Assembly: GCA_051362555.1 (NCBI GenBank)
Contig: CM120648.1
Span: 18,286,587-18,350,586, forward strand
Reading direction: 5' to 3'
Source: Lingula anatina
Lineage: Eukaryota > Animalia > Brachiopoda
Length of the DNA: 64,000 nt
Shown: in pieces, positions 1-41,227 of the stretch
Layout of the letters: each line of letters opens with the position of its first letter
How positions within the stretch are numbered: the stretch's first letter is position 1
The notes under the pieces: model-generated
The model's database searches: none
Told to the model about the DNA's origin: nothing
Seen by the model: only the letters and a program-made list of their open reading frames with translations
Translations under genes and position numbers: made by a program

Positions 1-190
1 GAGGTTTGTATTCAGTACAATGATATAACACACTGAGCAGTAGACTTCCCATAGGGAAAGAGGTTTGTATTCAGTACAATGATATAACACACTGAGCAGT
101 AGACTTCCCATAGGGAAAGAGGTTTGTATTCAGTACAATGATATAACACACTGAGCAGTAGACTTCATAGGGAAAGAGGTTTGTATTCCG
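1..190 (+). repeat. 59-bp tandem repeat containing the end of the upstream ClC exon (LSSRLPIGKE) plus its GT donor
   Basis: Unit CTGAGCAGTAGACTTCCCATAGGGAAAGAG|gtttgtattcagtacaatgatataacaca, at least 3 copies, running off the window start. GKE joins GPF of exon 888. Confidence 0.85.
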
Positions 191-887
191 TAAAGTTCCA
201 TTGTTTGTATTCCTTAGTGGGCAGTCAGTTGGATGTGTCTCACCTGAAATCTTATGAAGATTTCATCAGATTTAGGCTGTCTTCTGGAAGGCGGTCAGAT
301 TTTCAAATTTACATTGACGGGTATTTATTTTTTTTCTGTCGGAAGATGGTCTTAAATGGAGGATGGATCTACAAAGAAAATTTGGAAGGCTGTCAGAAAT
401 ATATCTGGATCTGCCTATCCTGTAGAAGCCTGCTTTTACTACATACATTCAGTAATTAATACCATGATGCATGTTCATTGTTAAACAGATGCCTGAAACT
501 GTAGGTCCGATTGGTCATGACCGACAAAATTTGTCTGGACAGGTAAAAAATTGTACATGGTTAGTCCAAAGGACCGGCAAGAGTTTTAAGAACTGCAATT
601 TTGAATTTACAGTTATCATTCTACATACTTCACTAATAAAATTATATAAAACCCAAAGCATTTTTCCCTTCCATTTCTAACCGATCACATTCACAAATAA
701 GTTACTTAATCATAGTATTTATCTCAAACGAGTCCGGCAAAAATGCATACGGTCAGGCAAATTTTTCATTACTTTCGGCCCAAATGTCCTGCCATTTTGA
801 ATAGTTTTCAGCATGTCTGGTTAAAATTCCATATAATGCTGTACGTCACTGTTATGATATGTAAGTGGGTTGATTATCCCTTTTCAG

Positions 888-3800
888 GGCCCCTTTGTCC
901 ATGTAGCCAGTATTGTGGCCACTTTGTTATCCAAGTTAATGGCCGTCAGAAGGATTTATGATGTAAGTATAGTGTGCTAACATAAATATTTATGTCAAAC
1001 GTACAGTCAGTATCATGTTTTTTTTTTCCTTTTTTTGAGGGGGAAGGCATTTGTAGTGTACTGTCAGTTTGTTGAAATTGTTTAGATGCACAGGTAATAA
1101 ACTGAAAGATTATGTTACAACTTTACAGCATTATGACAATTTATTTTATATTATAAAGATATTATTGTTACATTAGACACATACTTCCAGAATGAATCCC
1201 GTAACTATGAGATGCTGGCTGCTGCCTGTGCTGTGGGAGTGGCATGTACTTTTGCTGCTCCTATTGGAGGTATGCTGCTATCTACTGCGGTAACATAAAG
1301 AAACAAGAAAGAGACATAAAGAACAAGGAAGAGATTTTTCTGATAATTGACAGATTTAGAACTTTTGGGGAGCTAAAAATATCACTGGCCTAGGGGGCCC
1401 CTAGGTCCCATGCCTTATTTTCTGACTTTTTCACTGTATGGCAGTCTTATCCCTGTATAAAACTTAATGTTCAGGACAGATATAGGGCAGGGCTGTAACA
1501 CTAAAAAAAATTCTTATATTTAGAAATCTGGACACATCTTAATTTGAAATATGTCCTATTAAAAAAAAGTATTTCAGTCAACTTTGACCTTGGTTAATGA
1601 GTTGCTGTATGCTTCAGTAACTTCATGAAATTGTTAATTTGTCTTTTTTTCTCTTCAGGAGTGTTATTCAGTATATATGTCACGTCAGTGTAATATTTTA
1701 CTACCTTGTTTCTCTTCAGGAGTATTATTCAGTATAGAAGTCACATCAGTATATTTTGCTGTCAAGAACTACTGGAGAGGATTCTTCTCTGCCGTGTGTG
1801 GGGCTGCGGTATTTCGCTTACTGGCAATATGGGTGCAGGAAGAAGGTATCTAAAGAAGAGAATTCCAATTTTTTCCATCAATCATCATATTTAAGTTTAT
1901 GAAAAATTGATTTGTCAGATTTCAATTAATTTTGCTTGTTTTAACTGATTACAATAATTGGTTAAGAGCTCAATTTTACCAGAGTTAATCATTGGTTTAG
2001 AGCTAAGTTAGAACTAGGGGCCGGCTTTGACCAGCTGGAGTACCAGAGACCCTCATTTGACCACTTCAGCTGGTTGTCATACAGGCTTGTCATAGGGATC
2101 TTGGAGGAAATGCAAATTATTGTGATACTGTGTTGCTTTTTATTGAATTATGTTAACCATCCATCTTTCTTTGCCTCCATAGAAACCATCACTGCCCTGT
2201 TTAAGACTAGTCTAAGACAAGAGTTTCCATTTGATGCTGTGGAGCTGTTGGCATTTGGTACCATAGGGTAAGTCACCAGTGGGGTATAAGGTTTAAGACT
2301 AGTCTAAGACAAGAGTTTCCATTTGATGCTGTGGAGCTGTTGGCATTTGGCACCATAGGGTGAGTGGCTGGGGAAGGTGGAGCCAATTTGAAGGCTTGTC
2401 ACTGGGAGGGTTATGTACTGGGAGGGTGATTTAGTAAAAGGGCAAGTCACTGGGAAATGGGTCAGTCACTTAAATAAGCAATTCACAGGAAGGATAAGGT
2501 GATTGCACATTTAGTTTTCATCATTTGTCTGTTTTATTATTGTGACATTCATTTTAGCTGAGCCTACAGTGCCTGAGTTGTAGAACATGTCATTTGCTTG
2601 ATATGTTAATATCTGTGTCACTGTGATTGAATTATATGAGGAATCACAAGTTTTGAATAATTTCAAAGCAGTTCTTAACAAATAAGAACTATGCTTGCAG
2701 TGCAGTTTATATAAAAGGGAGTATGTTTTCTATCGGTAAATGATGCATCAGGTTAAAATTATTGTCAGATGGTACCTTTTTTTTCCTTTTACAGATTGGT
2801 GTGTGGGTTTGGAGGTGCTCTGTTCATTTATTTCCACAGGAAAATTATCCACTTTATACGAAAACAGAGGAAATTGTCCTCCTTTCTCCAGAAGAAGTAA
2901 GTACCAGTTACAGCAGGAGTCATCCACTGCGCGTATGGTACAGGTGAGTACCAGTTACAGCAGGAGTCATCCACTGCGCGTATGGTACAGGTGAGTACCA
3001 GTTACAGCAGGAGTCATCCACTGTATGTGACTTACAAGAGGGTAATTATATGGAGGTGCAAATGATTTGTTGATGTATGTCATATACAGTAGACCTCAGG
3101 TAGTTGTAGCCACTTCAAACATTCATAAAATGATTACACTTGTATTTTGCTCACAACACTGTGAAGCGTACTAAAAGAGTGAGCATGCAATTATCCTTTT
3201 GTTGCTAAAAGTAAATGTTTTTATGATTGTTATCACATAGGGAAATGTTTGGGATAATTATGTAAAAAGGACATAGTGAAGATACCTTATATAAGTGTTC
3301 AGTTCATTTCCATTGTATGTGTAGATATAGGGTGTAGTAAATATGAAATGTTTTATTTATTTCAGTTGATTCATCTATCCAACTGTGATAACATTTTATG
3401 TGTAGATATGTGTAGTAAATATGATGTGTTTTATTTATTTCAGTCGATTCATCTATCCAACTGTGATAACATTTTTGATATCCACTCTATCCTTTCCCCT
3501 GGGGCTGGGGCAGTATACAGCTGGAATGGTACATATCATGGGGGGTGGGGGTGTTATCCTTCCCCCTGGGGCTGGGGCAGTATACAGCTGGAATGGTAGG
3601 TATCATGGGGGGTGGGGGTGTTATCCTTCCCCCTGGGGCTAGGGCAGTATACAGCTGGAATGGTAGGTATCATGGGGGGTGGGGGTGTTATCCTTCCCCC
3701 TGGGGCTGGGGCAGTATACAGCTGGAATGGTAGGTATCATGGGGGGTGGGGGTGTTATCCTTCCCCCTGGGGCTGGGGCAGTATACAGCTGGAATGGTAG

Positions 3801-6800
3801 GTATCATGGGGGGTGGGGGTGTTATCCTTCCCCCTGGGGCTGGGGCAGTATACAGCTGGAATGGTAGGTATCATGGGGGGTGGGGGTGTTATCCTTCCCC
3901 CTGGGGCTGGGGCAGTATACAGCTGGAATGGTAGGTATCATGGGGGGTGGGGGTGTTATCCTTTCCTCTGGGGCTAGGGCAGTATACAGCTGGAATGGTA
4001 CGTATCATGGGGGGTGGGGGTGTTATCCTTTCCTCTGGGGCTGGGGCAGTATACAGCTGGAATGGTAGGTATCATGGGGGTGGGGGTGTTATCCTTTCCT
4101 CTGGGGCTGGGGCAGTATACAGCTGGAATGGTAGGTATCATGGGGGTGGGGGTGTTATCCTTTCCTCTGGGGCTGGGGCAGTATACAGCTGGAATGGTAG
4201 GTATCATGGGGGTGGGGGTGTTATCCTTTCCTCTGGGGCTGGGGCAGTATACAGCTGGAATGGTAGGTATCATGGGGGGTGGGGGTGTTATCCTTTCCTC
4301 TGGGGCTAGGGCAGTATACAGCTGGAATGGTAGGTATCATGGGGGGTGGGGGTGTTATCCTTTCCTCTGGGGCTGGGGCAGTATACAGCTGGAATGGTAT
4401 GTTTTCTAGAAACATTTTTCACAAGACTAGGAAGCAAACATATGATTAGTTTGTCTGATTTACCAACACAACTTACCAAACACCTCTTTCCTGCATTAGT
4501 AATAGATACCTCAAAATGTACAGAGATTATACTGCTGTGGGCATAAGTCACTTTCCACAACTCATGACAGTCCATCTGTCCTTTCAGTTCTCATGGAGAA
4601 ATTTAATGTACTTTCAGTTAACTCACCGAGCAGCTGTGAATGAGTTGTTTAGTAACTTCACATGGTCCACGGGGGAAGCAGAGAACTTAGATCTGGACCA
4701 ACTAGAGGTCCTCAGTCACTGGAATCACCCGGACACCAGCGTCTACGTCACACTGACTTTGTTTATTATTATACAGGTGAGATTTACTCTTTGTATGAGA
4801 AGACCAAATATCAACCCCAGTCTAATTGTATGAAGATTTTAAGAGTTCCAAATTGGAAAATATATCAGTTTTAACTTAACTTTAAAATATGCCGTGTGTC
4901 AATGTAAGGCTTAAATATAAATATGGATATTTTAGATATATATAATTTTAAATCTTTGTGCACTGATTTTTATGGTGTGGTATGATCTTTCAGGTTCAGT
5001 AAGGTACAGTGTAATAATGGAGTGTTGTACAGAGTGATCTCACACAAACAGTTTACTTATAATAATAATGGATTACATTTGTTTCTAGTTTATGTGATCT
5101 TTCAGGTTCAGTAAGGTACAGTGTAATAATGGAGTGTTGTACAGAGTGATCTCACACAAACAGTTTACTTATAATAATAATGGATTACATTTGTTTCTAG
5201 TTTATGTGATCTTTCAGGTTCAGTAAGGTACAGTGTAATAATGGAGTGTTGTACAGAGTGATCTCACACAAACAGTTTACTTATAATAATAATGGATTAC
5301 ATTTGTTTCTAGTTTATGTGATCTTTCAGGTTCAGTAAGGTACAGTGTAATAATGGAGTGTTGTACAGAGTGATCTCACACAAACAGTTTACTTATAATA
5401 ATAATGGATTACATTTGTTTCTAGTTTATGTGATCTTTCAGGTTCAGTAAGGTACAGTGTAATAATGGAGTGTTGTACAGAGTGATCTCACACAAACAGT
5501 TTACTTATAATAATAATGGATTACATTTGTTTCTAGTTTATGTGATCTTTCAGGTTCAGTAAGGTACAGTGTAATAATGGAGTGTTGTACAGAGTGATCT
5601 CACACAAACAGTTTACTTATAATAATAATGGATTACATTTGTTTCTAGTTTATGTGATCTTTCAGGTTCAGTAAGGTACAGTGTAATAATGGAGTGTTGT
5701 ACAGAGTGATCTCACACAAACAGTTTACTTATAATAATAATGGATTACATTTGTTTCTAGTTTATGTGATCTTTCAGGTTCAGTAAGGTACAGTGTAATA
5801 ATGGAGTGTTGTACAGAGTGATCTCACACAAACAGTTTACTTATAATAATAATGGATTACATTTGTTTCTAGTTTATGTGATCTTTCAGGTTCAGTAAGG
5901 TACAGTGTAATAATGGAATGTTGTATAGAGTGATCTCACACAAACAGTTTACTTATAATAATAATGGATTACATTTGTTTCTAGTTTATGTGATCTTTCA
6001 GGTTCAGTAAGGTACAGTGTAATAATGGAGTGTTGTACAGAGTGATCTCACACAAACAGTTTACTTATAATAATAATGGATTACATTTGTTTTCAGTTTG
6101 TGTGATCTTTCAGGTTCAGTAAGGTACAGTGTAATAATGGAGTGTTGTACAGAGTGATCTCACACAAACAGTTAACTTGTGATAATAATGGATTACATTT
6201 GTTTCCAGTTTGTGACAGCTGCTTTGGCTGGTTCTCTCCCCATTCCTGCTGGAGTGTTCATTCCTGTCTTCACTATAGGTAAGTTGTGTCATCATTTCAC
6301 CACTTACTGTTGCCTTGTCAACTATTCCCCATGCTGCGGACTGCGCAATTACATATTAAAGGAAAGCTTTTTTAATAACATTTCATTTTGTTTTGTTGTG
6401 TTTGTTAAAATTGATAACATGACTGTTCAGCAGTAGGTATGAGCAGTTTGAGTTCAGGTACATTGATAATTCTTTATTAATTTGAATAATTTTCATCATC
6501 CTTGGATAATCTACTAATTAATTATATATGGGTGGAAAATGAATTGAAAAATGATGCAAATGAAAGAGAATTTTAATAATTATGCTGTTCCGTGAAAAGT
6601 TGAACTTGAAAAGCACTGACCTTGACCTACAGTGACCTTGACCTACAGTGACCTGTCCACTCTGGTCTCACAGTGTCACACCTGAAGATCGTGACAGCTG
6701 TTGTTGTGGCTGAATGCCCATTTTCCTTCACTATGCTGCCATCTTCAGGTTAAAATTAGCTAAGAGAATGTTCTTAATTATTCCCAGGTGCTGCCTTTGG

Positions 6801-9800
6801 TCGTCTTGTAGGAGAGTGTTTGGCTACGTGGTTCCCCAGTGGAGTGAGGATGGGGGATCAGGTGTCTCCTATAGTACCTGGAGGATATGCTGTAGTAGGT
6901 AAGTGTATGACTACATGATATCCCAGTGAAGTCAAGATGGGAGAGCAGGTGTCTCCTATAGTACCTGGAGGATATGCTGTAGTAGGTAAGTGTATGACTA
7001 CATAGTACCCCAGTGAAGTCAGGATGGGAGAGCAGGTGTCTCCTATAGTACCTGGAGGATATGCTGTAGTAGGTAAGTGTATGACTACATGGTATCCCAG
7101 TGAAGTCAGGATGGGAGAGCTGGTGTCTCCTATAGTACCTGGAGGATATGCTGTAGTAGGTGAGTGTATGACTACATGGTATCCCAGTGAAGTCAGGATG
7201 GGAGAGCAGGTGTCTCCTATAGTACCTGGAGGATATGCTGTAGTAGGTAATATCATGTAACTCAGCAGTACTCTCTATCACTGTTAAGATTCATATTAGA
7301 GTCCTCTACAAACCCATGATAGTAACTACAGGTATGAAAGTTGATCACTTATCACTTCAATTATACTTGGTCTAGTGTGTCAGTTATTTTAAATATTGAA
7401 AAAAAATGAATATTATTATTCCAAACTGAGTTGTTCAGTACATTATTTATTAATAAGCCAGCTGTACATGTATCTTAATGCAGCAGCTATTGCTCTTAAA
7501 GCTGGCTGATATCGCATTGGAAAAAAATGTCAGTGGCATGTTCGTTTCAGTGTTTTTTTTTTTTGTTTTCATAATCATAAAGTGTGTGTTTATCACTGTG
7601 TAGGAGCTGCTGCTTTGGCAGGAAGCGTAACCCACACCATTTCCACCTCTGTGATAGTGTTTGAGCTAACGGGACAGATATCCCACATTCTACCTGCTGT
7701 GGTAAGACAACTGATTGTTTGATAAATGTGATAGTTTTAGAGCTAACGGGACAGATATCCCACATTCTACCTGCTGTGGTAAGACAACTGATTGTTTGAT
7801 AAATGTGATAGTTTTAGAGCTAACGGGACAGATATCCCACATTCTACCTGCTGTGGTAAGAAAACTGATTGTTTGATAAATGTGATAGTGTTTGAATTAA
7901 TGGGACAGATATCCATATTCTATTGGCTGACAGCATTGTTGGTCTTTGTAAAATTTAAATATATTAAATAAATTTTATAAAACCAACACTTATTTTTCAT
8001 TATCTGTATATCATTTGTATACTCAAGATAGCAGTGTTGATAGCCAATGCAGTCGCCCACAGCCTTCAGCCGTCCATTTATGACAGCATCATCCAGATCA
8101 AGAGGCTACCTTACCTGCCTGATATCATCCCCACCAAGTCCAGGTAATAAGTGATATCATCCCCACCAAGTCCAGGTAATGTGTGATATCATCCCCACCA
8201 AGTCCAGGTAATAAGTGATATAATCCCCACCAAGTCCAGGTAATATGTGATATCATCCCCACCATGTCCAGGTAATATGTGATATCATCCCCACCAAGTC
8301 CAGGTAATATGTGATGTCATCCCCACCAAGTCTAGGTAATATGTGATATCATCCCCACCAAGTCCAGGTAATATGTCATATCATCCCCACCATGTCCAGG
8401 TAATATGTGATATCATCCCCACCAAGTCTAGGTAATATGTGATATCATCCCCTCCAAGTCCAGGTAATATGTGATATCATCCCCACCAAGTTCAGGTAAT
8501 ATGTCATATCATCCCCACCATGTCCAGGTAATATGTGATATCATCCCCACCAAGTCTAGGTAATATGTGATATCATCCCCTCCAAGTCCAGGTAATATGT
8601 GATGTCATCCCCACCAAGTCCAGGTAATGTGTGATATCATCCCCACCAAGTCCAGGTAATATGTGATATCATCCCCACCAAGTCCAGGTAATATGTGATA
8701 TCACGCCCACCAAGTCCAGGTAATAAGTGATATCATCCCCACCAAGTGCAGGTAATATGTGATATCATCCCCACCAAGTCCAGGTAATAAGTGATATCAT
8801 CCCCACCAAGTCCAGGTAATATGTGATGTCATCCCCACCAAGTCTAGGTAATATGTGATATCATCCCCACCAAGTCCAGGTAATATGTCATATCATCCCC
8901 ACCATGTCCAGGTAATATGTGATATCATCCCCACCAAGTCTAGGTAATATGTGATATCATCCCCTCCAAGTCCAGGTAATATGTGATATCATCCCCACCA
9001 AGTCCAGGTAATATGTGATATCACGCCCACCAAGTCCAGGTAATAAGTGATATCATCCCCACCAAGTGCAGGTAATATGTGATATCATCCCCACAAGTCC
9101 AGGTAATAAGTGATATCATCCCCACCAAGTCCAGGTAATATGTGATGTCATCCCCACCAAGTCTAGGTAATATGTGATATCATCCCCACCAAGTCCAGGT
9201 AATATGTCATATCATCCCCACCATGTCCAGGTAATATGTGATATCATCCCCACCAAGTCTAGGTAATATGTGATATCATCCCCTCCAAGTCCAGGTAATA
9301 TGTGATATCATCCCCACCATGTCCAGGTAATATGTGATGTCATCCCCACCAAGTCCAGGTAATATGTGATATCACGCCGACCAAGTCTAGGTAATATGTG
9401 ATATCACCCCCACCAAGTCCAGGTAATATGTGATATCATCCCCACCAAGTCCAGGTAATATGTGATATCATCCCCACCAAGTCCAGGTAATATGTGATAT
9501 CATCCCCACCAAGTCCAGGTAATATGTGATATCACCATAACTAAGTCAAGGTAATATGTGATATCACCCCCACCAAGTCCAGGTAATATGTGATGTCATC
9601 CCCACCAAGTCCAGGTAATATGTGATATCATCCCTACTAAGTCAAGGTAATATGTGATATCATCCCCACCAAGTCTAGGTAATATGTGATATCACCCCCA
9701 CCAAGTCTAGGTAATATGTGATATCACCCCCACCAAGTCCAGGTAATATGTCATATCATCCCTACCAAGTCTAGGTAATATGTGACATCATCCCTACCAA

Positions 9801-12705
9801 GTCCAGGTAATATGTGACATCATCCCTATCAAGTCCAGGTAATATGTCATATCATCCCTACCAAGTCCAGGTAATATGTGACATCATCCCTACCAAGTCC
9901 AGGTAATATGTGATATCATCCCTACCAAGTCCAGGTAATATGTGATATCATCCCTACCAAGTCCAGGTAATGTGACATCATCCCTACCAAGTCCAGGTAA
10001 TATGTCATATCATCCCTACCAAGTCCAGGTAATATGTCATATCATCCCTACCAAGTCCAGGTAATATGTGACATCATCCCCACCAAGTCCAGGTAATATG
10101 TGATATCATCCCTACCAAGTCCAGGTAATATGTGATATCATCCCTACCAAGTCCAGGTAATATGTGACATCATCCCCACCAAGTCCAGGTAATATGTGAT
10201 ATCATCCCTACCAAGTCCAGGTAATATGTGACATCATCCCTACCAAGTCCAGGTAATATGTGACATCATCCCTACCAAGTCCAGGTAATATGTGACATCA
10301 TCCCTACCAAGTCCAGGTAATATGTGACATCATCCCTACCAAGTCCAGGTAATATGTGACATCATCCCTACCAAGTCCAGGTAATATGTGATATCATCCC
10401 CACCAAGTCCAGGTAATATGTGATATCATCCCCTCCAAGTCCAGGTAATACTTTCAGTACAAAACATTTTTCTGTACGTGAAATATTCCATGTCAGATGT
10501 GTTATCATATCCTTCTTGCAGCCCATATTATGTACATATATATATAATGTCTGGTGTCTTTGCAGCACTTACAATGTGTTTGTGGAGGACTTCATGATCC
10601 GTGACATCAGGTTTATCAGCTATATCGCCACATACCAGGATGTGAAGAATCTGTTGGAGACATCCAAGTTAAGAACATTCCCATTGGTGGATGCCCCAGG
10701 TAGGGTAAACACACATGTGTAATGGCACTGGAGAAAGTTTGATTTTCTTCCTACAAATCAAACAGAGGCATGTCTGAAATCCCAATCAGGATGTGTTTTT
10801 ATCCAGGGATGGAACCATGGTTCGTGGAAGCAGTGTTGAACCAGTCAGATTTTTTAAAATCAAAATATATGTGTGAAAGCTCCTCCTTTAACCCTTATTT
10901 TGTCCTGTCTGCTATACCTTGAACATAGCACTGGCATATCAGGATCTCTGTGGGATTCCAAGACATGGGATTTATTAACTGAACATTGTACACTGTTCTG
11001 TAGTCTTCTTACTTAGTGTTATATTCTAGTATGTCAGTTTTACATGGTATTATCAGGTTTGAAAGCACCTTTCCTCTGATATTCTGATAGGCTTTTTCAC
11101 CAAACAGTTTATAACAGGTATACATAAGACATTTATTTTTAGTATTTAGACCACTAACATATTGTTATATGTATACAATATAATGATATGCCATTCAGAA
11201 GACAATCATATCCATTATGTTGTGTATATTTCCAGAGTCCATGATTCTCCTTGGGTCTGTACAGAGACTGGAGCTGGAACTGCTACTGGAGGCTCAGCTT
11301 GGATGACAGCGCCGTCTGGCAGCAGTTGAAGAGGCATTACATAAACGGCAACAGGAAGAGAGCCAAGGAACAGCTGGAGAAGAGGACGTCCCAAGGCGAT
11401 ACCGAGGGGACGCGACCAATGGCGGCCTGCAGTGGAGATATGTTGAACGCTGTGAAGGTCCACCGTCAGCCGTCAGCCAGGTTTACGGTGACCCCTGCCG
11501 CCAGCAAGGTGGACAGTGGTGGACAGGTCCAGTTGAAGCTGGACTCCACGGTAAACAATGTGTGTGTTTGTGGATTTGAATGATAATCACAAGGACCATT
11601 CCCACAGATATTTGGATTGATCTATCTCCCTGGGTAGTCTCACTACATTACTATCCCCTTAACTGGCTTGAATGCCTGTCATGCCTAGTAAAGCTGATAG
11701 GGTGTAATTAAGCCAGTTATTTCATAGCAATTTATTGAGACTTCCCTGGGAGTTAGACCGATCCAGATGGTGTGATAATATATGTGAAATGATATTACTA
11801 CATTATCTCTGCCATCATTCCAGCTACCAGAACAAACAGCTAATGGAGACACGCTGAAACCGCACAAGTACACCAAGGCACCACAGAGAGGGATATTAAA
11901 GAAGAGTCCCCGTCCCAGCCCCCGGGCTAGTCCCAGGGCCAGTCCTAAAGGAAGTCCTCAGTCTTCACCTCGCTCTAGTCCACCAGGGTCTGCCAAGACA
12001 AGCCCCACACCCAGTCCACAGTTAGGTTAGCCAGCTCTGGGCTACTACACTGGTCTGAAAGTTAACTTTTGATGTATTAAGAATATGGCTAAGTTAAAGG
12101 ACTGTCTAGAAAATATTCCAGTTTTTATTAAAATCACACTGCAGTTTCTCAAAAAAAAAAAAAAAAAAAAAGAAGGGTATAGTGTATATAATTTGGTATA
12201 AAAAAAACGAATGATCATGAATAATTATTTAAAATTACTGAATTAGAGTAATGTGATTTTTAAGTAATCTTTACATTAGCTTGATGCAAGATGAGGTTAA
12301 AAATTGCTTACATTTAAAAAGATAATTTTAACCCTCTATAACAGGTACCTATATAGTATATACACCCTTAGGTTTATTTACCATCACACTATTGTTTTCC
12401 ATGTACCTTTCTCTGTTTATTTTGATAATGAAGTTTGATTAATTTTGATTTTACAGAAAAGAAATTCAGCATTGGGCTGGCAAAGATTTTCAAATCTCGA
12501 AGTAAAGAAAGTATCGCGGACAGTACGGCTTCCGAAGATGATGAAGCTCAGGTAACTATGGCAACAAACTGATAAACAGCATGGAATATTTTAGTTTAAA
12601 AGTCAATATTTACAGGGTTCTGTATTCTACTTATGAAGGATTAGCAGTGTGAGGACTCAAGTATATCTAATTATATTATATATAGCATCGTGAATATCAT
12701 AAGAG

Positions 12706-12768
<63 letters not shown>

Positions 12769-30700: not shown

Positions 30701-31221
30701 AGGGAGGTTGGTAGAAGTGGTTACACTTAAAGAGGTAAACACACATCAACTTGTTACTATCATAACTATATAATACTGTAAACTTGAACCATGTCTATGT
30801 CACCAATACAGGGAGGTTGGTAGAAGTGGTTACACTTAAAGAGGTAAACACACATCAACTTGTTACTATCATAACTATTTAACACTGTAAACATCAGAAT
30901 TGCTGCTATTTGGCACTAGAAAAGTAAATGCTTAATGTGTTTAAAAGTTGTTACAGTATTACTCAGCCTTTGTTAAATCTTGTGTGACCCAAGTCTTGTG
31001 TAAGGTGTTACACTCTCAAAGTATAGGTCAGAGAATGATGGAACAAGTTTAACAAATCACAGCATGGGGTAATGCAATCAGCCTGCATTTTGTGCTTGCA
31101 GGTAAGGAGGGCCATTGAGGGCCAGGTAGAAGAAGACCATGAACTGATGCGGACACACAAGCATGGCAATACTGTGGAACTGGAGATGGAAGTGAGGGAA
31201 CGGTCGGATAGTGAGGCTTGA
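888..31221 (+). CDS. CLCN2: ClC-2-type voltage-gated chloride channel, 3' portion (5' exons lie upstream of the window); disrupted in exon 11236-11550
   Basis: GT-AG exons, phase-consistent except as noted: 888-962 (GPFVHVAS, follows GKE), 1191-1269 ([17 protein letters not shown]), 1720-1845 ([16 protein letters not shown]), 2183-2267, 2795-2896, 3444-3528, 4618-4776, 6209-6278 ([11 protein letters not shown]), 6788-6898 ([18 protein letters not shown]), 7604-7701 ([17 protein letters not shown]), 8028-8143 ([17 protein letters not shown]), 10566-10699 (CBS1), 11236-11550, 11824-12025, 12457-12551, 13002-13046 (tentative), 15622-15699, 18273-18362 (possibly alternative), 26006-26041, 30099-30203 ([14 protein letters not shown]), 30539-30625 (CBS2, [15 protein letters not shown]), 31102-31221 (stop). 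The motifs are those of the ClC-1/ClC-2 branch. An in-frame TGA at 11304-11306 and a 2-nt deficit near 11357-11362 may make this a pseudogene or null allele. Confidence 0.93.
1645..1752 (+). repeat. Duplicated 3' splice site (61-bp spacing)
   Basis: tttctcttcag|GAGTGTTATTCAGTATA with AG ending at 1658, and tttctcttcag|GAGTATTATTCAGTATA with AG ending at 1719 (the frame-correct one). Confidence 0.85.
2199..2365 (+). repeat. Duplicated exon 3' end plus donor (92-bp spacing)
   Basis: 2199-2267 and 2291-2359 match at 68 of 69 nt; donors GTAAGT at 2268 and GTGAGT at 2360. Confidence 0.9.
2897..3023 (+). repeat. 47-bp tandem repeat, each unit GT...CAG, starting exactly at the donor
   Basis: gt(a/g)agtaccagttacagcaggagtcatccactgcgcgtatggtacag at 2897, 2944 and (partial) 2991. 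Confidence 0.9.
3316..3475 (+). repeat. Duplicated 3' splice site plus exon start (78-bp spacing)
   Basis: ttttatttatttcag|T(T/C)GATTCATCTATCCAACTGTGATAACATTTT with AG ending at 3365 and at 3443 (frame-correct). Confidence 0.9.
3488..4400 (+). repeat. 66-67-bp G-rich minisatellite of exon end plus donor, 14 donor copies
   Basis: Unit TATCCTT(T/C)CC(C/T)CTGGGGCTGGGGCAGTATACAGCTGGAATG|gtaggtatcatggggggtgggggtgt; donors run from 3529 to 4397. Confidence 0.95.
4980..6215 (+). repeat. 112-bp tandem repeat (about 11 copies) ending on the acceptor of exon 6209
   Basis: Each unit ends ggattacatttgtttctag|tttatgtga; the last copy reads tttgtttccag|TTTGTGA (frame-correct acceptor, AG ending at 6208). 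Confidence 0.95.
6808..7250 (+). repeat. 87-bp tandem repeat of exon 3' part plus donor, 5 donors
   Basis: Donors at 6899, 6986, 7073, 7160 and 7247; the unit translates as [29 protein letters not shown]. Confidence 0.95.
7650..7922 (+). repeat. 77-bp tandem repeat of exon end plus donor, about 3.5 copies
   Basis: ...GGGACAGATATCCCACATTCTACCTGCTGTG|gtaag with donors at 7702, 7779 and 7856. Confidence 0.93.
8120..10450 (+). repeat. 32-bp minisatellite of exon end plus donor, about 73 copies
   Basis: Unit TGATATCATCCCCACCAAGTCCAG|gtaatatg; the first copy is the true exon end (DIIPTKS), donor at 8144. Confidence 0.97.
13002..14422 (+). repeat. About 97-bp tandem repeat carrying a whole 45-nt putative exon plus donor; interrupted by about 520 bp of unrelated sequence (about 13321-13841)
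   Basis: Unit ACACCATTAAACTACCTGAAGGTCAACATACCTGTATCTACCCAG|gtttgtcaactg...ggtatt; about 3.3 + 6 copies; only the first is preceded by CAG. Confidence 0.9.
14568..15642 (+). repeat. 57-bp tandem repeat of acceptor plus exon start, 19 copies
   Basis: tatatttcactattgacag|GATTCCTCCCT(G/A)TATGAGTTG; AG ends run from 14595 to 15621 (frame-correct, last). Confidence 0.97.
17507..17752. mobile_element. Internally palindromic short interspersed element (MITE-like); related copies at about 41387-41595 (inverted) and about 11597-11768 (diverged)
   Basis: The reverse complement of 17550-17752 aligns with 41387-41595 (gactgggtt.ccat.cctaga.tgatct...ctaaattgct...gcttagatgtctgg...gttaattacccccta.cagcttcagt). 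Internal inverted arms cagcttagatgtct / agacatctaagctg. Confidence 0.6.
19656..20642 (-). CDS. Tyrosine recombinase (phage integrase family)
   Basis: 328-aa ORF with FAGFLRYSE (R), KSKTD (K), HSMR (HxxR), HGRW and the catalytic Y in AKDGY. Confidence 0.93.
   Translation of the reverse strand: MREVQDTTLKSLAADLPQVLEHSRAENTVRKYSSVFQRWKKWASNFEEVKVFPAQTHHIALYMLSLIQHSCKPGTIQDVKYGLKWTHEIAGINPNPCDNPMINNIVEASKRTSRKKTVKKEIVTPKMLEMMINNFANTNASLADLRDVCIFLLSFAGFLRYSEVCNIKRSDISFTEQYFEIFIEKSKTDIYRDGSTVLIAKTGKSTCPYAFLQRYLEAANIEEHSDNFIFRPVSYLKKSKKHILRKNGKMSYTRIREVILQKLEILGFDRQKFGLHSMRVGGATAAANFGVKDRLFKKHGRWISDKAKDGYIKDSLSKRIQVSLNIGI
21000..21550. repeat. 22-bp tandem repeat between the pol and YR ORFs
   Basis: Unit tctgttcgcatcgaacc(a/c/g)(a/c)(a)N3; homogeneous core at about 21190-21510 with degenerate flanks. 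Confidence 0.85.
21740..23956 (-). CDS. Pol: reverse transcriptase, RNase H and DAM-methyltransferase-like domain
   Basis: 738-aa ORF overlapping gag. RT: [28 protein letters not shown]. RNase H: [28 protein letters not shown]-terminal MT-like region: [23 protein letters not shown]. Confidence 0.93.
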   Translation of the reverse strand: MQVYLIEEAFFFEEKDSQTQTTSASPVDNMAIGGKAVHTKTKHRVQCIHEKEHTDRNSEEAKLHTAGGNKTNKSKMSKSKMKDKYMIDNNLRNSDGLLDYHQNVNVKGRLKRNYQFWESIQANKYILDVLKNGYVIPFIETPPNSFIKNNKSSLENTEFVINTIKDLLKSGRIREVKEIPKVVNPLTVTSNGKKKRLVLDLRHVNPYIWKEKVKFEDANEALQYVKLGGYMFQFDLKDGYHHIDIKESQQDFLGFSWRMNGQIKYYVYTVLPFGISSAGYIFTKVLRCLVKHWRSKHIPIVMYLDDGLGFSENFETCERFANLIRHDLLKSGFVVNEVKSMWKPTQTLNWLGLQWDLKKGILSIIDKRVADLKIDIMEIMENISNTSARSLARITGKIISLYIVFGDVTRLMTRNMHQVINDRRNWDGIEDLKDKSDLRNELKFWLSNIDRLNRRVMFVEDVPKILGFSDASEHACGGYLIRCNSEICHKMWSDSEKKQSSTWRELKALFISLQSFTKFIKNRKIGWFTDNKNVVRIVQTGSMKVHLQTLALNIFNFCVENDIILQIKWIPRTQNAKADFISKIIDTDDWEVTENFFNFMNKKWGSYTIDRFANYENTKVTRFNSKFWNPNTEAVDAFLQDWSNENNWLVPPVALVPKVINHLLCCKAKGTLVVPDWKSATFWPLLQDENSKWKWYIKDIIKFKNGCDICKQGKNKNSYIGSKNFKHQILAIRIDCSE
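23739..24593 (-). CDS. Gag-like protein of the PAT/DIRS element
   Basis: 284-aa ORF with [32 protein letters not shown] and a CCHC knuckle ([14 protein letters not shown]). Confidence 0.88.
   Translation of the reverse strand: MSKRRRESTSESEDTESESREFLNLAVEDKEEGNEGTFNEKGDVNDNSSAGQMTDTFSVFKSYMDKQFISLKRELVEESQSQNKKAKTVQKKLKFAGNQKQFEINTEVIENMQKADMLIKDGHVKEARKAIKEGTDILQKRNKLIRIADKSEAGWEAVKEYESDDLAEDSDDKKKIRSAQMRASRKMRIRNQNRRNKNEFNYNKKNYTASVNFAGISDRGSFLFRRKRFPNPNDQCFACGQYGHWRESCPYKDQAQSTVHPRERTYGQKFRGSEATYSGWQQNK
27654..29886 (+). mobile_element. Non-autonomous Helentron-type (DINE-1/HINE-like) element with internal tandem repeats
   Basis: 5' T-run, palindrome atgtacagacaca-ga-tgtgtctgtacat (27659-27686) and a gtcgcc microsatellite; internal duplications of about 160 bp and about 400 bp; 3' subTIR tgtctgtacat (29854-29864), hairpin cagc-ttt-gctg, and CTTGT followed by a T-run. 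Confidence 0.7.
30567..30892 (+). repeat. 109-bp tandem repeat of exon end plus donor, 3 copies
   Basis: TGAACCATGCCTATGTCACCAATACAGGGAGGTTGGTAG(G/A)AGTGGTT(G/A)CACTTAAAGAG|gtaaac with donors at 30626, 30735 and 30844. Confidence 0.93.
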
Positions 31222-31514
31222 ACTACATCAACTCATCAGATAGTGAGGCGTAAATAATAATTGCTCATGGTCAGTTTGGGACAGAAAGGAAAGTGAAGCA
31301 CATGGAAACTGAAATATTTTATCAGGACATGAAATATGCCAGAAGACAGTGAAGAGAACATTACTAGGAGCTGTGTACCAGTAGAGAGAGAGGAGAGTAT
31401 GAACTCTTAACATTGGTGCTGTGGTCAGAATACTTGGTGTTTACCATGTACCCCCCTCTCACTGCTGACATACTGCATTTAGAGAGTTATCAAAATAAAG
31501 AACAAAGAGATATG

Positions 31515-31795
31515 GCATGTCATGATAGTCCATGACTTGACAGTCAGTGTCATGGTAACCATTGCCATGACAATATGCCATGACAGTCCATGACCTGACA
31601 TTCAGTACCATGGTAACCATTGCCGTGACAATATGGCATGACAGTCCATGGCCAGACATTCAGTATCATGGTAACCGTTGCCATGACAACATGGTATGAC
31701 AGTCCATGACCTGACATTCAGTACCATGGTAACTGTTGCCATGACAACATGCCATGACAGACCCCGCTTCATATACAGTGACATGGTAACCATTG
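31515..31795. repeat. About 58-bp degenerate tandem repeat in the presumed ClC 3' UTR
   Basis: Recurring catgacagtccatgacctgacattcagtaccatggtaaccattgc units. Two further two-copy duplications of about 80 bp lie at about 31942-32110 and 32424-32583. Confidence 0.7.
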
Positions 31796-33440
31796 TTTCA
31801 GTTCATAATAATGCCAATATCATTTTATCCATGTTAAATTTATTTGGGTGCTTAAGTAAATAAATACATTGTAACTACTGGTGTATGGGGGGGGGGGGGG
31901 GGTTCATGCCAAGGCAGTCCTTTTGTACCCAGAGTTTAAGAGTTTACTGTAGACTGACCTGTGTAATCATCATGTCTTCCAGAAAGGGAGGGGAGACATG
32001 ATGATAATACAGCTTACTGGCAGTTTACTGTAGACTGACCTGTGTAATCATAATGTCTTCCAGAAAGGGAGGGGAGACATGATGATAATACAGCTTACTG
32101 GTAGTCTACTGGAAACTCCAAAACTCTGGATGCCATTTTAGTCATATATTTGTATATATATATTAACATTACCATATTTTTTATATCTCTTTTTGTACAG
32201 ACTGCATTATGATTTAAATTAGCTTTTTGAATGGTCAAATGATCCCTTGTTTTCCTTGTTCTGTTTATTTCAGTCATTGGCATATTATCATTATTCATAA
32301 ATTTCAATTATCACAAAACAGATACAACTGTAACAGTGAATTTCCCTCTGGGGTTTAACTGTTGTTTATATTTAACAAAAAGAAACAGCACTATGCTGTC
32401 AAGTGCAAGGAGCCAAGTTGTTTTAAAATAGGTTGTTCTATTAAAATAGACTGAACTGTTTTTATACACTGTGGTGTACAGTGTTTGTCCTCATAAATAG
32501 AATTAAAATAGGTTGTTCTATTAAAATAGACAGAACTGTTTTTATACGCTGTGGTGTACAGTGTTTGTCCACATAAATAGAATTCCTCTCTCTTCTTTAG
32601 AATGTCAATTTAATACTTTTGATTTACTGAACAGCTGTGGCCAACAAACATATATTATCTCTATCTTATAAAGTATAAGGGTGTGTGTATGTGTGTGATC
32701 ATTTGTGGGTGTGTAACAGTATAAGAAACGTTGTGCAGCATAAGATTTCTTAAAACTACAAAGCATCTCTGTGCGTCTTGATAGCCTTATGTATAAAGTT
32801 GGAGCCATGATATGTAAAAAATGAAGTCATCTTTTTCAGATATTCTAGTCTTACATACAGTATGTAGTATTGGGCCAGAATATCACTTGGTTGTTGCGGG
32901 ATTTTGTACTTTTTACTATTCAGTCAGAAAAATTTCATTAGCATGGTGGGCCTCATATAATATGCTTACAAACTTGAGCATTGGTTGATCAAAATTTATA
33001 TTGTTTATGCATCAATTATGTGCATATGTTATTGTTTATACAGAATGAAGTTAATCCAAGCCTGATATGCGTATATATTAGTGTTATGCAAGGTGTATTT
33101 AATAATAACGAACAGCAGTATTAACTACAGACTTCAGTGCAGTGATTTAGCTGGCATCATACCAGGAAGTTTATCAACAATTCTGTCTTCTCTGTAATGC
33201 TGAGATTTGAGACACAACTGTTGACCTTTGCAATTAATGAAAAATAAATATATTTTTCTTGAAATACAAGCTATTGTCTGTCTTGATTGACAGTAGACAA
33301 AGTTGTACATATATTCTGTAAAGAAGTTGGATGAAAATGACCACTACTGGTAAGATCCTTAAAACATTACTTTCCATTTGCAATTGAAAAACGATTCCGT
33401 ATAAACTTTTGTAGTTCTAAGGTATAAGCTAGGGTGATAT

Positions 33441-36400: not shown

Positions 36401-39400
36401 ACCTACTTTTCACCATGAACTGAACTTTGCAAATTTTGCTTCCCTTTTATCTCCAAAACTGGCAGAGACAGGTCCATAGTTACTATTGAAGGTGAATAGG
36501 AAGTCATATACTGGCAATCGTACTGTGACCTTGAAATTGACCTTTGACATACCTTACGATGAACCAAACCTTGATTGTACCATTTTTAGTTATATATATT
36601 TTTTGCATATTTTGAAAATTCTTGTTGATTGCATTTTACAGCTTGTCAAGCACAAGACTGGTGGCTGTGTCCCTTATTTTGCATATTTGGGGGTCTATAG
36701 GAATGCGCTTACTCCAGCTGGTGGTACAATATTCGGAGGCGGTATCGCCTCTCTGATCCTCTAGTTTTGTTCTACGTTCAGTAGTTTCAAAGCTCCAGTA
36801 GGAAACATTAAGTATTTTATTATTACGTATATTATATTGTAATTCTATCTGCATATTTTGTACAACTTCAAAACAAACTGGAAATTTAGCAATAAAATAA
36901 AATTAGTGTCATTATTATAATTTTTATCAACATTCTTTGGTACCATCAGCATTCCAATCACATGCAAGCACTGGTAAATAGGCACTTTGTACGTGTGGAA
37001 TGAAATTTACAATAATAAATACGATAACATTAACAAATACAAATCACGCTGGACTATCAAAAATTACATAAATTTACTTGTACTTACGTGTATCGCCAAC
37101 CATACACAAGGTAACAGACACCCCAGAGTTATAGAGAGCCAGTTCCTGTACTTACGTGTATCGCCTACCATACACAAGGTAACAGACACCCCAGAGTTAT
37201 AGAGAGCCAGTTCTTGTACTTACGTGTAGCTCCTACCATACACAAGGTGACAGACATTCCAGAGTTATAGAGAGCCAGTTCCTGCCTGAGGACGCCAAAG
37301 AACCCCTGGAGAGCGTACTTAGTGGCGGTGTACACGGCTGTATATGGAGTGGCGGTAACTCCTGAAATAACAGCGTGGTCTGAATTTGTACATACGCTGT
37401 AGTGGCTTATTACTTATTATTATTATATATACAGTCATCTAATGGAAACGGTTCAAGTCTTATGATGTTTACTGCTATGAAATACGCACACTGGTCTAGA
37501 AGAAATACAACATTGGTCAAAAAGGTTGTCCCACCCCCGGTTTCATGTGCTTTTATTTATAAATGATCACATCACAGGAGTTAATTGCCATAAATTGTGT
37601 TTTTCATTCCAGATACCATAACTAACATGATTAGTGGTAAAGAAAATACAAACTAGCGGTGAAGATATCAACATTTAATACCATTTATTCACAGTTATTA
37701 CGTGTACCCCCTCAAATCTGACGTTTCACTGTGATTTTCACAGAGGTTAAGAAATGTCCATTAAATTGAAATTTCACCAAATTTCACCAAATTTACACAC
37801 ATTTAGCATGAGTGCGTGCTATGTGTCTAATAGCGTTCATGTTAACCGCGTACTGTAATTACCTCCTGTAGGTGGCGCAGCCCGCCTTCAACAAGGGTAA
37901 CAATCCTTTTTTGGGGATATTGTCCCATTCTTCCGAAAGAGCTTGGAAGAGTTGGTCCAGATTTATTAAGAGTTACGTTTTCCTTTGCACTGCACACTTC
38001 AAACCACGTCACAGATGTTTAGCAAGGTTAATAACATGGCTCAAAGATGGTTGCTCCATTGGGTTTCTGCAACAAATCACTCATCAGACGAGAGTTGTGA
38101 GCAAGTGCATCTCCACGATGACGCCCACAGTATCCCTGGAGTCACCTCTTGCAAATGAAATGAATTCAGTGAATTGCCCCAGTATCGTTCTTTTCCGGAA
38201 AGAACAATGCTCTTAAACCATGGGCTTGGAATTCTCTCCAAACGTGGACTGACCTGACACCTCAGGCTATATCATCCTGCACAAACCTATCAAAAGGCAT
38301 TCTGCAACATGTGTACAGACCCTAGTTTGACCATCGAAATCATTCATGAAATACCTTGATTCTTCAGCAAAACCAATTGTTTCTAGTGATGGTTGACCAA
38401 GCTTTGGTAGTTCTGGGATCACTGAACCTAGCATTCTTAACTGATACCTCATTCCATCTGCAAGAGGGGACTTCGGGGGTGATTCAGGCATCATCATGAC
38501 AGCACACTTGCACACAGTTCTCATGTGGTGAGTGATTTGTTGCAGAAACCCAATGTTCTGAGGCTGGAGACACCATCTCTGAATCCAGATAATAAACCTA
38601 TTGAGCACACGTGGCATGAATTGAAGTGTGCAATCCAGAGGAGAACCAAACTCCAAACAGTCCGGACCAATTCCGTCAAGTTTTTTAGGAAACATGGGGC
38701 AATATCCCACTTGAAGGTAATGGCGCCGTCTACAGGAGATAATTACAGAACGAGGTAAACACACACGCTAATAGACAAGTGACCTTTAACAAGAACACCT
38801 TAATGCTAAATGTGTGTAAATTTGGTGACATTTGGTGGTGTTAATTCAATTTAATGGACATTTCTTTGCCTCCGTGGAAATGACAGTGGAACATAGGATT
38901 TGAGGGGGTACATGTAATAAATGTGAATAAATGGTATTTAATGGTATTAAATATGGGTATATAGTTTGTATTTTCTGTGCCATGAATCATGTTAGTTATA
39001 CTATCTGGAATGAAAATCACCATTTATAGCAATTAACTCCTGTGATGTGATCATTTATAAATAAAAGCACATGAAACTGGGGGTGGGACAACCTTTTGAC
39101 CAATCTTGTATATACCATAAAACTAAGAAGAGTGATTATTTCAAATGATTCCAATATTAAATCAAAACACTCAACCTGTCAGAAAAGGTCTTCTGCAAGA
39201 GTGTTGTTCGATACTGAACAAACGGTAATTTTTTTTTTCATCTTCTTCTTATTTGAGACGTTTTATTTCAAGTGATTGACAGGCAGACGATATACCCACC
39301 CGCAGTAGAGGAGACCACAGAAATGTGACCACGACTATTGGTCAAAAGAGGTAGTGCATGGGACGCCAGATGAACATATGACCGGAAGTTAACGTCCATA

Positions 39401-41227
39401 CTGGTGGTCAGTCTCGTGAAGTTATCCCCTGTCCCCAGCCACGGCTGGACGTTAGGCGATATAGCATGGTTCAAAATCAGTATGTCCAGCCCGCCGAGTT
39501 TGTTTTCCGTAAACTTGGTTTATGAAAAAAACAACGTTTTTATAATATTTAACCAATCGTTTTTTGCAATTCTAGAGACATTTTGCAGTTGTGCACACTT
39601 TAACTGCTATACTGTTTTCACTGTTCGTTTAAAATTGCTTTCATTTAGGTCACAAAGGTCGTCACGCCTGTTTCCATGAATATTATACTAATGATAAAAA
39701 GCTAAACTTGGCATCCAATTGCTCATTATTCAGACATCTTGTATATTTGACAATACTGTACGTAATTCACAACGTTCACATTGTTCAGGACCCATATACT
39801 GTAACCCCTCTACCCATGATGACTGCCGAAATTGATAATGCCAAAAGTTTAGCTGGGTCCCCGATCTTATTTACCCTGAGTGTCAGCGTCACTGTGAAGC
39901 CAGTTTTGCTGATATGGGTTATATATGAAATCAAGATCGAGCTGGCAAAACTGAAATCTAGACCCTAGGGTAGATCTTAGCGTCCTTCTGTGGAAAATCC
40001 TTCTGTGGAAAATCCTTCTGTGTGTGTGTGTGCTCTGTACCTTGATAACCCTAGCTGTCTCCTCCATGTCTCCCAGATCAATGTCTGTGTGTTGGTGTGT
40101 GTGCGTGTGTACTGTATACCTTTATAACTCTAGCTGTCTCCTCCATGTCTCCCAGATCAGCTACTGTGTACATATGGTTAGACTCAGGTGCCGGAGATAA
40201 CTTTTTACACTCTGCGATGACCTGAAATCGTTATTATGGAAAGATGCAACTGACACTCAACTGATTGTTCAAATAGCTAAATTATAGAGCAGCTTTTGTA
40301 AAGGAAAATAAAATCGTTAATAAAGCATATTGTCTAAGTCACGAAGTTCGAAGCTGTTATTTGAAGGTTGACCCTCCCTCACTTCTCTTAATTTATTACC
40401 GGCAACTGACCTTTTTTAAGAGGTTTTCTCTGCGCGCCGTTAAAACAAGATTTGCTCCCATCTTGGCGAAATGGTACGCCACCTGTTCTCCAATTCCAGA
40501 GGACGCCCCGGTAATGAGCACTCTCTTGCCTCTCACCATGGCTGTGATAAAACCGATATGCTTATATCAGCCTATTATCATTTTGATTTCTGTTATAAAT
40601 TTGGCAATTTAATAACACACCGGTAGGCCTGATTTAATCCATATGTAATGACAAATATGTGGCTTTATCTTACGCAGACAACGTAGATATTGTGGTTATG
40701 GCAATTTCATACATGTAGATATTAAAAAAATCATATGCCATAACAAAGTTCTATGTGGCTTTATCTTGGGCAGACGTCGTAAATATTATTTTGGAGACTA
40801 GGAGAGAAATAGCACGAAATCCATGCGTTATCTCTCTTCTTTTTGGATACTGATATCCAATGGTTGTGTTAGCAGGTTACAGCCAACACGTAGGCCATTA
40901 AAATGGAATGCTAACGCATGGATTTCATACTTAAGGAGAGAAAGAGAGAGTGGTACACAAAAATATGATCGACTGGCGTATTTTCAGCCTCACCAAACTA
41001 AGTTGGTCTGCCCTAAGTCTTTAATCGTTTACTCACATACTGATCACAAGTGTCAGTCCCGTTGAGTACAGTAGACTATACGAACATGTAGCACATCAGA
41101 CTTAGATAGAGATCGGCAAAGACCGTTCATGCTCACCGGGATCGAAATCATCCACGTAGAGGCTGGCGATGTAGACGGCAGTCACAGTGAGGAGCACAGC
41201 AACCAGGGTTTTTGTCTTGGAACCCAT
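33441..41227 (-). CDS. HSD11B1L: Hydroxysteroid 11-beta-dehydrogenase 1-like short-chain dehydrogenase/reductase, 302 aa, 6 exons
   Basis: Exons 41227-41137 (MGSKTKTLVAVLLTVTAVYIASLYVDDFDP, signal/anchor), 40541-40411 (VLITGASSGIGEQVAY..TARRE), 40221-40120, 39513-39300 (LGGLDILILNH..VNFRSYV..VVSS), 37361-37224 (YTATK catalytic YxxxK, GFF..LRQEL), 33673-33441 (stop). Total 909 nt with all phases consistent. The symbol is a family-level assignment. Confidence 0.88.
34297..36766 (+). mobile_element. Non-autonomous Helentron-type (HINE) element with about 148-bp internal satellite units, in the last SDR intron
   Basis: 5' subTIR attgtaccaccagc with adjacent inverted gctggcggtaca; 3' subTIR gctggtggtacaat, hairpin ggaggcg-gtat-cgcctct and terminal CTAGT. 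Tandem units tatctccaaaactggcagagataggtccatag... at 35280-36550. Confidence 0.8.
37078..37284 (-). repeat. 68-bp tandem repeat of SDR exon 5 end plus donor, 3 donors
   Basis: Minus-strand unit CAGGAACTGGCTCTCTATAACTCTGG..CCTTGTGTATGGT(A/T)GG...TACAC|gtaagta; GT at 37223, 37155 and 37087. Confidence 0.92.
37508..39108. mobile_element. Tc1/mariner-derived fold-back element
   Basis: TA flanks (37506-37507 and 39109-39110); termini CAA(C/G)ATTGGTCAAAA...; long inverted arms. Decayed transposase C-terminus (PSLNPDNKPIEHTWHELK, resembling SPDLNPIEHxW) on + at about 38525-38760, with a homologous segment on - at about 37870-38160. Confidence 0.8.
39872..39972. mobile_element. Short MITE-like element (TACCCT...AGGGTA); longer relative at about 45138-45294
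   Basis: Both copies begin taccctgagtgtcag and share atatatgaaatcaagatcgagctggcaa...tctaga.cctagggta. Confidence 0.55.
40036..40160 (-). repeat. Duplicated SDR exon 3 end plus donor (79-bp spacing)
   Basis: TGATCTGGGAGACATGGAGGAGACAGCTAG(A/G)GTTAT(A/C)AAG|gta with GT at 40119 (true) and 40040. Confidence 0.9.

What the first reader, a model, noticed from the sequence alone, without database searches (positions are those of the whole stretch)
1..40160. Splice-junction-anchored tandem repeats across two host genes
Seen: at least 15 unrelated tandem duplications sit on exon-intron boundaries. In ClC there are 9 donors (window start, 2268, 2897, 3529, 6899, 7702, 8144, 13047, 30626) and 4 acceptors (1719, 3443, 6208, 15621); in the SDR gene there are 2 donors (37223, 40119). 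Units are 32-112 bp in 2 to about 73 copies and share no sequence with each other, yet each contains the splice dinucleotide, and all but the 47-bp array include exon sequence. The frame-correct site is always the first copy for donors and the last copy for acceptors, so the coding sequence is untouched. About half of the ClC introns are affected. The other large intronic arrays are mostly inside transposons, and I saw none at the 10 introns of the two IS3EU genes. Inference: either a mutational process is focused on splice junctions (for example co-transcriptional R-loops, spliceosome- or chromatin-boundary-linked breaks, or RNA-templated repair), or conserved exon ends anchor arrays against decay. 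Either way splicing must ignore many near-perfect decoy sites. Tandem duplication of AG/GT-containing sequence is an established model of intron gain, but I do not know of a description at this density and cannot check the literature.
Basis: partly seen in the sequence, partly recalled or inferred. Interest (0 to 1): 0.9.

Follow-up and report, generated by a model that had tools for sequence, protein, structure and literature searches.

The report
Dense "mirage" repeats in brachiopod genes
Two neighbouring genes of the brachiopod Lingula carry about a dozen short repeats made from copies of their own exon edges and splice signals; RNA reads used the genuine signal at the sites tested, so these are likely harmless examples of the "mirage" repeats already described in lancelets.

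Summary
The arrays are real. The genes are a ClC-2 chloride channel and a short-chain dehydrogenase; the ClC exon matches Lingula anatina proteins at 96%.

Of 15 claimed arrays, 12 span a supported splice junction and one more runs off the window start. The 47-bp array holds no exon. The 98-bp array sits on an exon I could not verify. Junction arrays exceed chance locally (12 of 21, 4.1 expected, P=1.5e-4), but the window was chosen for this pattern.

RNA reads from other animals use the first donor or last acceptor at the tested sites, at low depth. DNA from another animal holds the 67-bp array, probably the 92-bp one, and lacks the 61-bp one.

This is a known kind: amphioxus 'mirage' minisatellites (PMC3087553) and the human F7 intron-7 VNTR (PMC1557585). 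The scan noted the pattern before on other DNA (25 notes, at least 8 genomes); my searches found none for Lingula.

One correction: the window's ClC copy has a stop codon and a 14-bp gap in exon 11236-11550, unrelated to the arrays.

The parts
1..192 (+). 59-bp donor mirage, about 3.3 copies in the window; the true exon lies upstream of or at the window edge
   Evidence: RNA loose end before 886 matches the unit's exon part
888..31221 (+). ClC-2 chloride channel gene, 3' part; 21 modelled coding exons, some probably alternative
   Evidence: RNA joints
1645..1760 (+). 61-bp acceptor duplication, 2 copies 84% alike; true exon starts at 1720
   Evidence: absent from a contig of DNA run X8 (skip of 63); no RNA joint listed for this acceptor
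2199..2365 (+). 92-bp donor duplication (69 exon bases); true donor at 2268
   Evidence: 10 RNA reads join 2267 to 2795; X8 contig 2240-2320 with no differences, 29 letters on the short side, just under the tool's 31-letter bar
2897..3023 (+). 47-bp array abutting donor 2897; no exon bases; resembles a dispersed repeat; not a strict mirage
3311..3475 (+). 78-bp acceptor duplication; true exon starts at 3444
   Evidence: 18 RNA reads join 2896 to 3444
3488..4402 (+). 67-bp donor mirage, 14 GT sites; true donor at 3529
   Evidence: 21 RNA reads leave at 3528 into exon 4618; X8 contig bridges a unit joint; unit peptide in NCBI model P0002
4983..6214 (+). 112-bp acceptor array, 11 sites, about 6 exon bases; true exon starts at 6209
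   Evidence: exon matches P0002
6808..7250 (+). 87-bp donor mirage, 5 sites; the unit is almost all exon plus the donor hexamer
7650..7922 (+). 77-bp donor mirage, 3 sites; true donor at 7702
   Evidence: exon matches Pfam Voltage_CLC below the curated cut-off
8120..10450 (+). 32-bp donor mirage, 73 GT sites; true donor at 8144
   Evidence: unit-like peptides in both NCBI models
11236..11550 (+). ClC exon broken in this assembly: TGA at 11304 and 14 bases missing after 11352
   Evidence: DNA run X1 and models P0001/P0002 are intact; 4 of 4 RNA reads lack the stop
13002..14422 (+). 97/98-bp array on an unverified exon (possible donor at 13047), split by a 520-bp insertion at 13322-13841
14550..15642 (+). 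57-bp acceptor array, 19 AG sites; probable exon starts at 15622
   Evidence: no RNA laid here; exon absent from NCBI models
30567..30892 (+). 109-bp donor mirage, 3 sites; true donor at 30626
   Evidence: exon matches P0002
31516..32584 (.). three non-junction arrays (58, 81 and 80 bp) downstream of the ClC stop codon
33441..41227 (-). short-chain dehydrogenase gene, 6 exons; exons 2-6 read open
   Evidence: Pfam adh_short
37077..37284 (-). 68-bp donor mirage of the SDR gene, 3 sites; true donor at 37223
40019..40169 (-). 79-bp donor duplication of the SDR gene; true donor at 40119

Best explanation
These are mirage-type minisatellites: tandem copies of a gene's own exon edge and splice signal lying in the adjoining intron, likely started by ordinary local duplication and likely kept because they leave the mRNA unchanged. 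Inferred steps: (1) 30-110 bp duplications arise often in this genome by slippage or break repair at short shared words. (2) Those wholly inside coding exons are removed by selection, while those across one junction put their extra copies in the intron by geometry and survive. (3) Unequal exchange or slippage then expands, homogenises or collapses them. (4) They are over-represented at exon edges mainly because conserved exon-edge sequence keeps a master copy while deep-intron arrays decay, perhaps with some excess of origin in exon-like sequence. (5) Splicing keeps the genuine site because the first donor met is used and because decoys lack a full exon with a partner site; rare decoy use would give a stop or frameshift and likely be degraded. 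Shown: the anatomy, local enrichment, genuine-site use at three tested joints, and presence or absence between animals.
For: Anatomy matches the published definition. The 15 units are unrelated at the unit level as inspected and breakpoints are not fixed. Same-size arrays lie away from junctions: 3.2 per kb of opportunity at junctions, 1.6 downstream of the stop codon, 0.46 in other intron DNA. RNA: 10, 18 and 21 reads use the genuine sites at 2268, 2897/3444 and 3529, with no decoy joint listed. All 14 nearest decoys that were translated give a stop or a frameshift. Turnover: X8 lacks the 61-bp copy and holds the 67-bp array; the 98-bp array is split by an insertion. First-site use in an identical-copy donor VNTR was shown experimentally for human F7 (abstract of PMC1557585).
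Against: Enrichment was tested in one window picked for the pattern; a P of 1.5e-4 would be expected about once among 6,640 such windows. The RNA comes from other animals, 90-99% alike, that may lack some arrays; depth is low and the tool hides joints under 3 reads. Origin bias and retention bias cannot be told apart here. In the 67-, 87- and 92-bp arrays the intron part of the unit does not recur after the last copy (31%, 52% and 46% alike), which plain duplication explains only with later decay or an inserted filler. The comparison with the 3' region rests on 3 arrays, and that region was not shown to be transcribed.
Confidence: 0.7

Rival explanations
1. A mutational process tied to exons or splice junctions (transcription-, chromatin- or methylation-linked breaks repaired with duplication) creates these duplications preferentially at exon edges, rather than retention explaining the excess.
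For: About 7-fold higher rate at junctions than in other intron DNA (12 vs 6 arrays, P=8e-5). Several arrays end within a few bases of a donor, and the 26-bp intron part of the 67-bp unit has no other match in the window.
Against: Breakpoints are uniform across the junction (P=0.14). The region downstream of the stop has a similar rate (P=0.41). The window was selected after the fact. No methylation or germline data were available.
Confidence: 0.2
2. The density reflects relaxed selection on a dead ClC copy: the window's haplotype or duplicate lost function and then gathered arrays.
For: Stop codon and 14-bp gap in exon 11236-11550. Among displayed differences that set the window apart from the other animals, 6 change the protein and 9 are silent, against 1 and 8 for differences that vary among them (P=0.19). 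The 61-bp duplication is missing in X8.
Against: X8, which carries the common letters, has the 67-bp array and probably the 92-bp one. NCBI models with an intact exon contain peptides from the 67- and 32-bp units. The SDR gene reads open through exons 2-6 and has two arrays.
Confidence: 0.05
3. The arrays are functional: they tune splicing or expression by acting as decoys or by sending some transcripts to decay.
For: Nearly all decoys keep GT or AG. Human VNTRs with splicing effects are reported (search listing only, PMC10078293).
Against: No decoy joint among 49 informative reads. One duplication is absent in another animal. Retention of GT/AG follows from recent copying and homogenisation.
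Confidence: 0.04
4. The arrays are assembly artefacts.
For: No raw long reads were available. The broken exon was seen in none of the runs that cover it.
Against: Copies differ from each other in patterned ways (84-99% alike). Independent short-read contigs and NCBI models hold unit joints. Copy numbers themselves are unchecked.
Confidence: 0.01

Closest known systems
Amphioxus 'mirage' minisatellites (Adh3; globins BflGb6 and BflGb9; troponin C; PGBD5). Read: passages of PMC3087553 and PMC3902484. The original Adh3 paper (Canestro 2002) was not held and is known here only through those citations.
   Same: The unit spans an exon-intron boundary; both donor and acceptor types occur; units are locus-specific (10-160 bp there, 32-112 bp here); splice signals are kept; normal splicing appears intact; copy number or presence varies; intron gain was already proposed.
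   Different: Host is a brachiopod, not a cephalochordate. Up to 73 copies. About 10 or 11 arrays in one gene. Somatic instability was not tested here.
Human F7 intron-7 37-bp VNTR (PMC1557585, abstract read)
   Same: The first element spans the exon-intron boundary; identical downstream donors stay silent; the most upstream site is used.
   Different: One locus in one gene, studied with constructs. It covers donors only and does not address acceptor arrays or density.
Intron gain by tandem genomic duplication at AGGT (PMC3443670, passages read)
   Same: Duplication of sequence holding a splice signal. The 87-bp unit is nearly all exon, with a shared GTAGG word at both ends.
   Different: All these arrays sit at existing introns; no new intron was shown here.

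Membership tests
mirage minisatellite | Tandem repeat whose unit spans an exon-intron boundary | tested here: met
   12 arrays on supported junctions plus the window-start array; not met for the 47-bp array; inconclusive for the 98-bp array
mirage minisatellite | Duplicated splice dinucleotides in the copies | tested here: met
   GT or AG at all scored sites, except 4 GC of 9 in the 98-bp array
mirage minisatellite | Normal splicing not disturbed | tested here: inconclusive
   Genuine sites used in 10, 18 and 21 reads and no decoy joint listed; low depth, other animals, only 4 of 15 arrays touched by these joints
mirage minisatellite | Length or presence varies between haplotypes | tested here: met
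   61-bp duplication absent in an X8 contig; copy numbers of long arrays not measured
mirage minisatellite | Somatic instability | not testable with these tools
   Needs small-pool PCR or tissue long reads
intron gain by tandem genomic duplication | Duplicated exon segment is spliced out as a new intron at a position lacking one in relatives | not tested
   Intron positions were not compared across species; arrays adjoin introns that have unique sequence beyond the array
transposon-derived tandem array | Unit derives from a dispersed element | tested here: inconclusive
   Likely for the 47-bp array and possibly the intron part of the 78-bp unit (high X8 depth); the tested units had no other match inside the window

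The most novel reading that the evidence does not exclude
Lingula, and many marine invertebrates, have a genome-wide mutational bias that makes 30-110 bp tandem duplications in and next to exons, so that in some genes up to half of the introns carry polymorphic decoy splice-site arrays. That would be a large natural experiment in splice-site choice and a standing source of new introns and exon extensions, so far described only gene by gene in amphioxus.
Probability: 0.25. Interest if true: 0.55.

Novelty: new member of a known kind. Interest (0 to 1): 0.22.

Why it matters
As it stands this is a dense example of a known repeat class in a phylum where my searches found no report. It matters for annotation: both NCBI Lingula ClC-2 models appear to have taken decoy copies as exons. 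If exon-edge enrichment holds genome-wide, it would turn an amphioxus anecdote into a measurable process and allow tests of splice-site choice and intron gain with natural alleles.

Tried and rejected
Genome-wide enrichment: no genome is held, so the test stayed within the window. No RNA holder was listed for 30000-33300; this is no evidence either way, and raw RNA runs with the same species label were laid instead. One search was meant to show which exon follows 12551, but that loose end was among the 135 rows not shown, so exons 12973/13002-13046 and 15622-15699 have no RNA test. A candidate exon at 25439-25504 was dropped: it has stops in two frames and no convincing homology in the third. 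Fixed breakpoints, as expected of an RNA-templated origin, were not seen. Donor excess (9 of 26 vs 4 of 26) is not significant (P=0.20). The original mirage paper was not held under three identifiers. The Lingula genome paper's main text has no passage on such repeats under four search words; its supplements were not read and could mention them. The IS3EU-like genes were not mapped; searches list no array of 30 bp or more between 48950 and 56000.

Full report
Observation. I read the whole window and ran TRF and a self-BLAST. Site-by-site listing shows GT or AG in every scored copy, except four GC sites in the 98-bp array. The in-frame site is first for donors and last for acceptors in all 14 arrays where it can be placed.

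Host genes. Exon 4618-4776 hits two Lingula anatina ClC-2 proteins at 96% (2 hits of 8 candidates), so the window is from a brachiopod. My exon model (corrected) matches those proteins exon by exon wherever they contain the exon. The minus-strand gene is a short-chain dehydrogenase (Pfam adh_short); exons 2-6 read open, and exon 1 was misplaced by one base in that script.

Corrections to the count. The 47-bp array has no exon bases and looks like a dispersed repeat. Exon 15622-15699 is probable, because its join to exon 26006 forms a motif like one in 40 of 117 homologues, though alone it scores no better than shuffles. That leaves 12 arrays on supported junctions, plus the window-start array, whose exon part is confirmed by RNA loose ends.

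Chance. I collapsed arrays to one unit and placed each unit at random among positions that selection could tolerate. Then 12 of 24 arrays span a junction against 3.1 expected (P=1e-5), or 12 of 21 against 4.1 (P=1.5e-4) when five transposon-like stretches and their three arrays are removed (the window-start array was left out; transposon limits were set by eye). The window was chosen for this pattern, and a 425-Mb genome (size from PMC4595640) has about 6,640 such windows, so the stricter P could occur once by chance. Rates per kb of opportunity are 3.2 at junctions, 1.6 downstream of the ClC stop (3 arrays) and 0.46 elsewhere in introns (6 arrays). The junction and downstream rates are not distinguishable (P=0.41).

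Splicing. Three RNA runs of three studies were laid on 850-3600. Joints listed were 962-1191, 1845-2183, 2267-2795 (10 reads) and 2896-3444 (18 reads); 21 reads leave at 3528 into the next exon. These are the first donor or last acceptor. No decoy joint was listed, and no joint was listed for the 1720 acceptor. Limits: the reads are 90-99% alike, so they come from other animals that may lack some arrays; joints under 3 reads are hidden; 25 loose-end rows were not shown. Use of the nearest decoy would give a stop in 13 of 14 cases and a frameshift in the other.

Reality and variation. One DNA run (X8) has a contig across a 67-bp unit joint, a contig across the 92-bp joint (just under the tool's bridging bar), and a contig that lacks the 61-bp copy. 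The NCBI model P0002 contains a peptide that is the 67-bp unit read through its intron part, and both models contain 32-bp-unit-like peptides. So the arrays exist outside this assembly and turn over. Long-array copy numbers were not checked.

A broken ClC copy. Exon 11236-11550 has TGA at 11304 and lacks 14 bases after 11352. DNA run X1 and both NCBI models are intact there, 4 of 4 RNA reads lack the stop, and run X3 has no depth over the stop. Other differences that set the window apart include several amino-acid changes (displayed rows only, 57 and 122 rows hidden). This suggests a null haplotype or decaying duplicate, but an assembly error is not excluded. It does not explain the arrays, since animals and models with intact alleles have them and the SDR gene has two.

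Mechanism. The exon share of the unit runs from 0.05 to 0.93 and fits a uniform spread (P=0.14, 14 arrays; shares estimated; test), so breakpoints are not set by the splice site. The simplest account is frequent local duplication, loss of copies that damage coding sequence, survival of those that straddle one junction, and later expansion or collapse. The excess at exon edges may come from better retention next to conserved sequence or from biased origin; these data cannot separate the two. One oddity remains: in three donor arrays the unit's intron part does not recur after the last copy.

What is known. PMC3087553 (passages) describes minisatellite-like duplications of intron-exon boundaries in amphioxus globins and Adh3, calls them mirages, and reports both boundary types, length instability, normal splicing and a model of intron gain. 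PMC3902484 (passage) adds troponin C and PGBD5. PMC1557585 (abstract) shows first-site use in the human F7 VNTR. PMC3443670 (passages) reviews intron gain by tandem duplication. Searches showed no report for brachiopods and no genome-wide survey in the listings displayed; the library lacks most subscription journals. The scan's own notes list 25 similar findings in at least 8 other genomes, among them abalone, sea urchin and annelid (unchecked AI notes, 8 shown), and none for Lingula. I had reached the mirage reading before consulting them.

Verdict. Real, locally enriched, probably silent, and a new member of a known kind. Interest 0.22. The open question worth a genome-wide test is whether exon edges attract or merely keep such duplications.

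Noticed in passing
window 11236-11550: ClC-2 exon with an in-frame stop and a 14-bp gap between short direct repeats; intact in X1 and the NCBI models. Null haplotype, decaying duplicate or assembly error.
   Followed up: partly
window 18560-24780, minus strand: DIRS-like retrotransposon inside a ClC intron: an ORF with reverse transcriptase, RNase H and Dam methylase matches (21743-24049) and a tyrosine recombinase ORF (19659-20720), with split direct repeats seen by eye.
   Followed up: partly
window 13322-13841: A 520-bp insertion splits the 98-bp array, with about 25 bp of the unit start on both sides; it has no other match in the window.
   Followed up: partly
P0001 and P0002: Both NCBI Lingula ClC-2 models miss real exons and appear to use decoy copies of the 67-bp or 32-bp arrays as exons; P0002 also repeats three exons.
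   Followed up: partly
window 15622-26041: Probable alternative paths in the ClC C-terminal linker: exon 18273-18362 (in the NCBI models) versus exons 15622-15699 plus 26006-26041.
   Followed up: partly
window 14561-15691: The 57-bp array is open for 377 codons in one frame because the unit is 19 codons; likely a by-product.
   Followed up: no
window 11585-11810: A very high-copy short element in a ClC intron, with great depth in DNA runs and many RNA reads.
   Followed up: no
window 57430-59470, minus strand: LINE-like open frames (57973-58671 and 58653-59468), not scanned further.
   Followed up: no
window 46748-47151 and 63280-63589: The same 20-bp array in opposite orientations; 48420-48910 and 62730-63130 also look like an inverted pair, suggesting nested elements with long terminal inverted repeats.
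   Followed up: no
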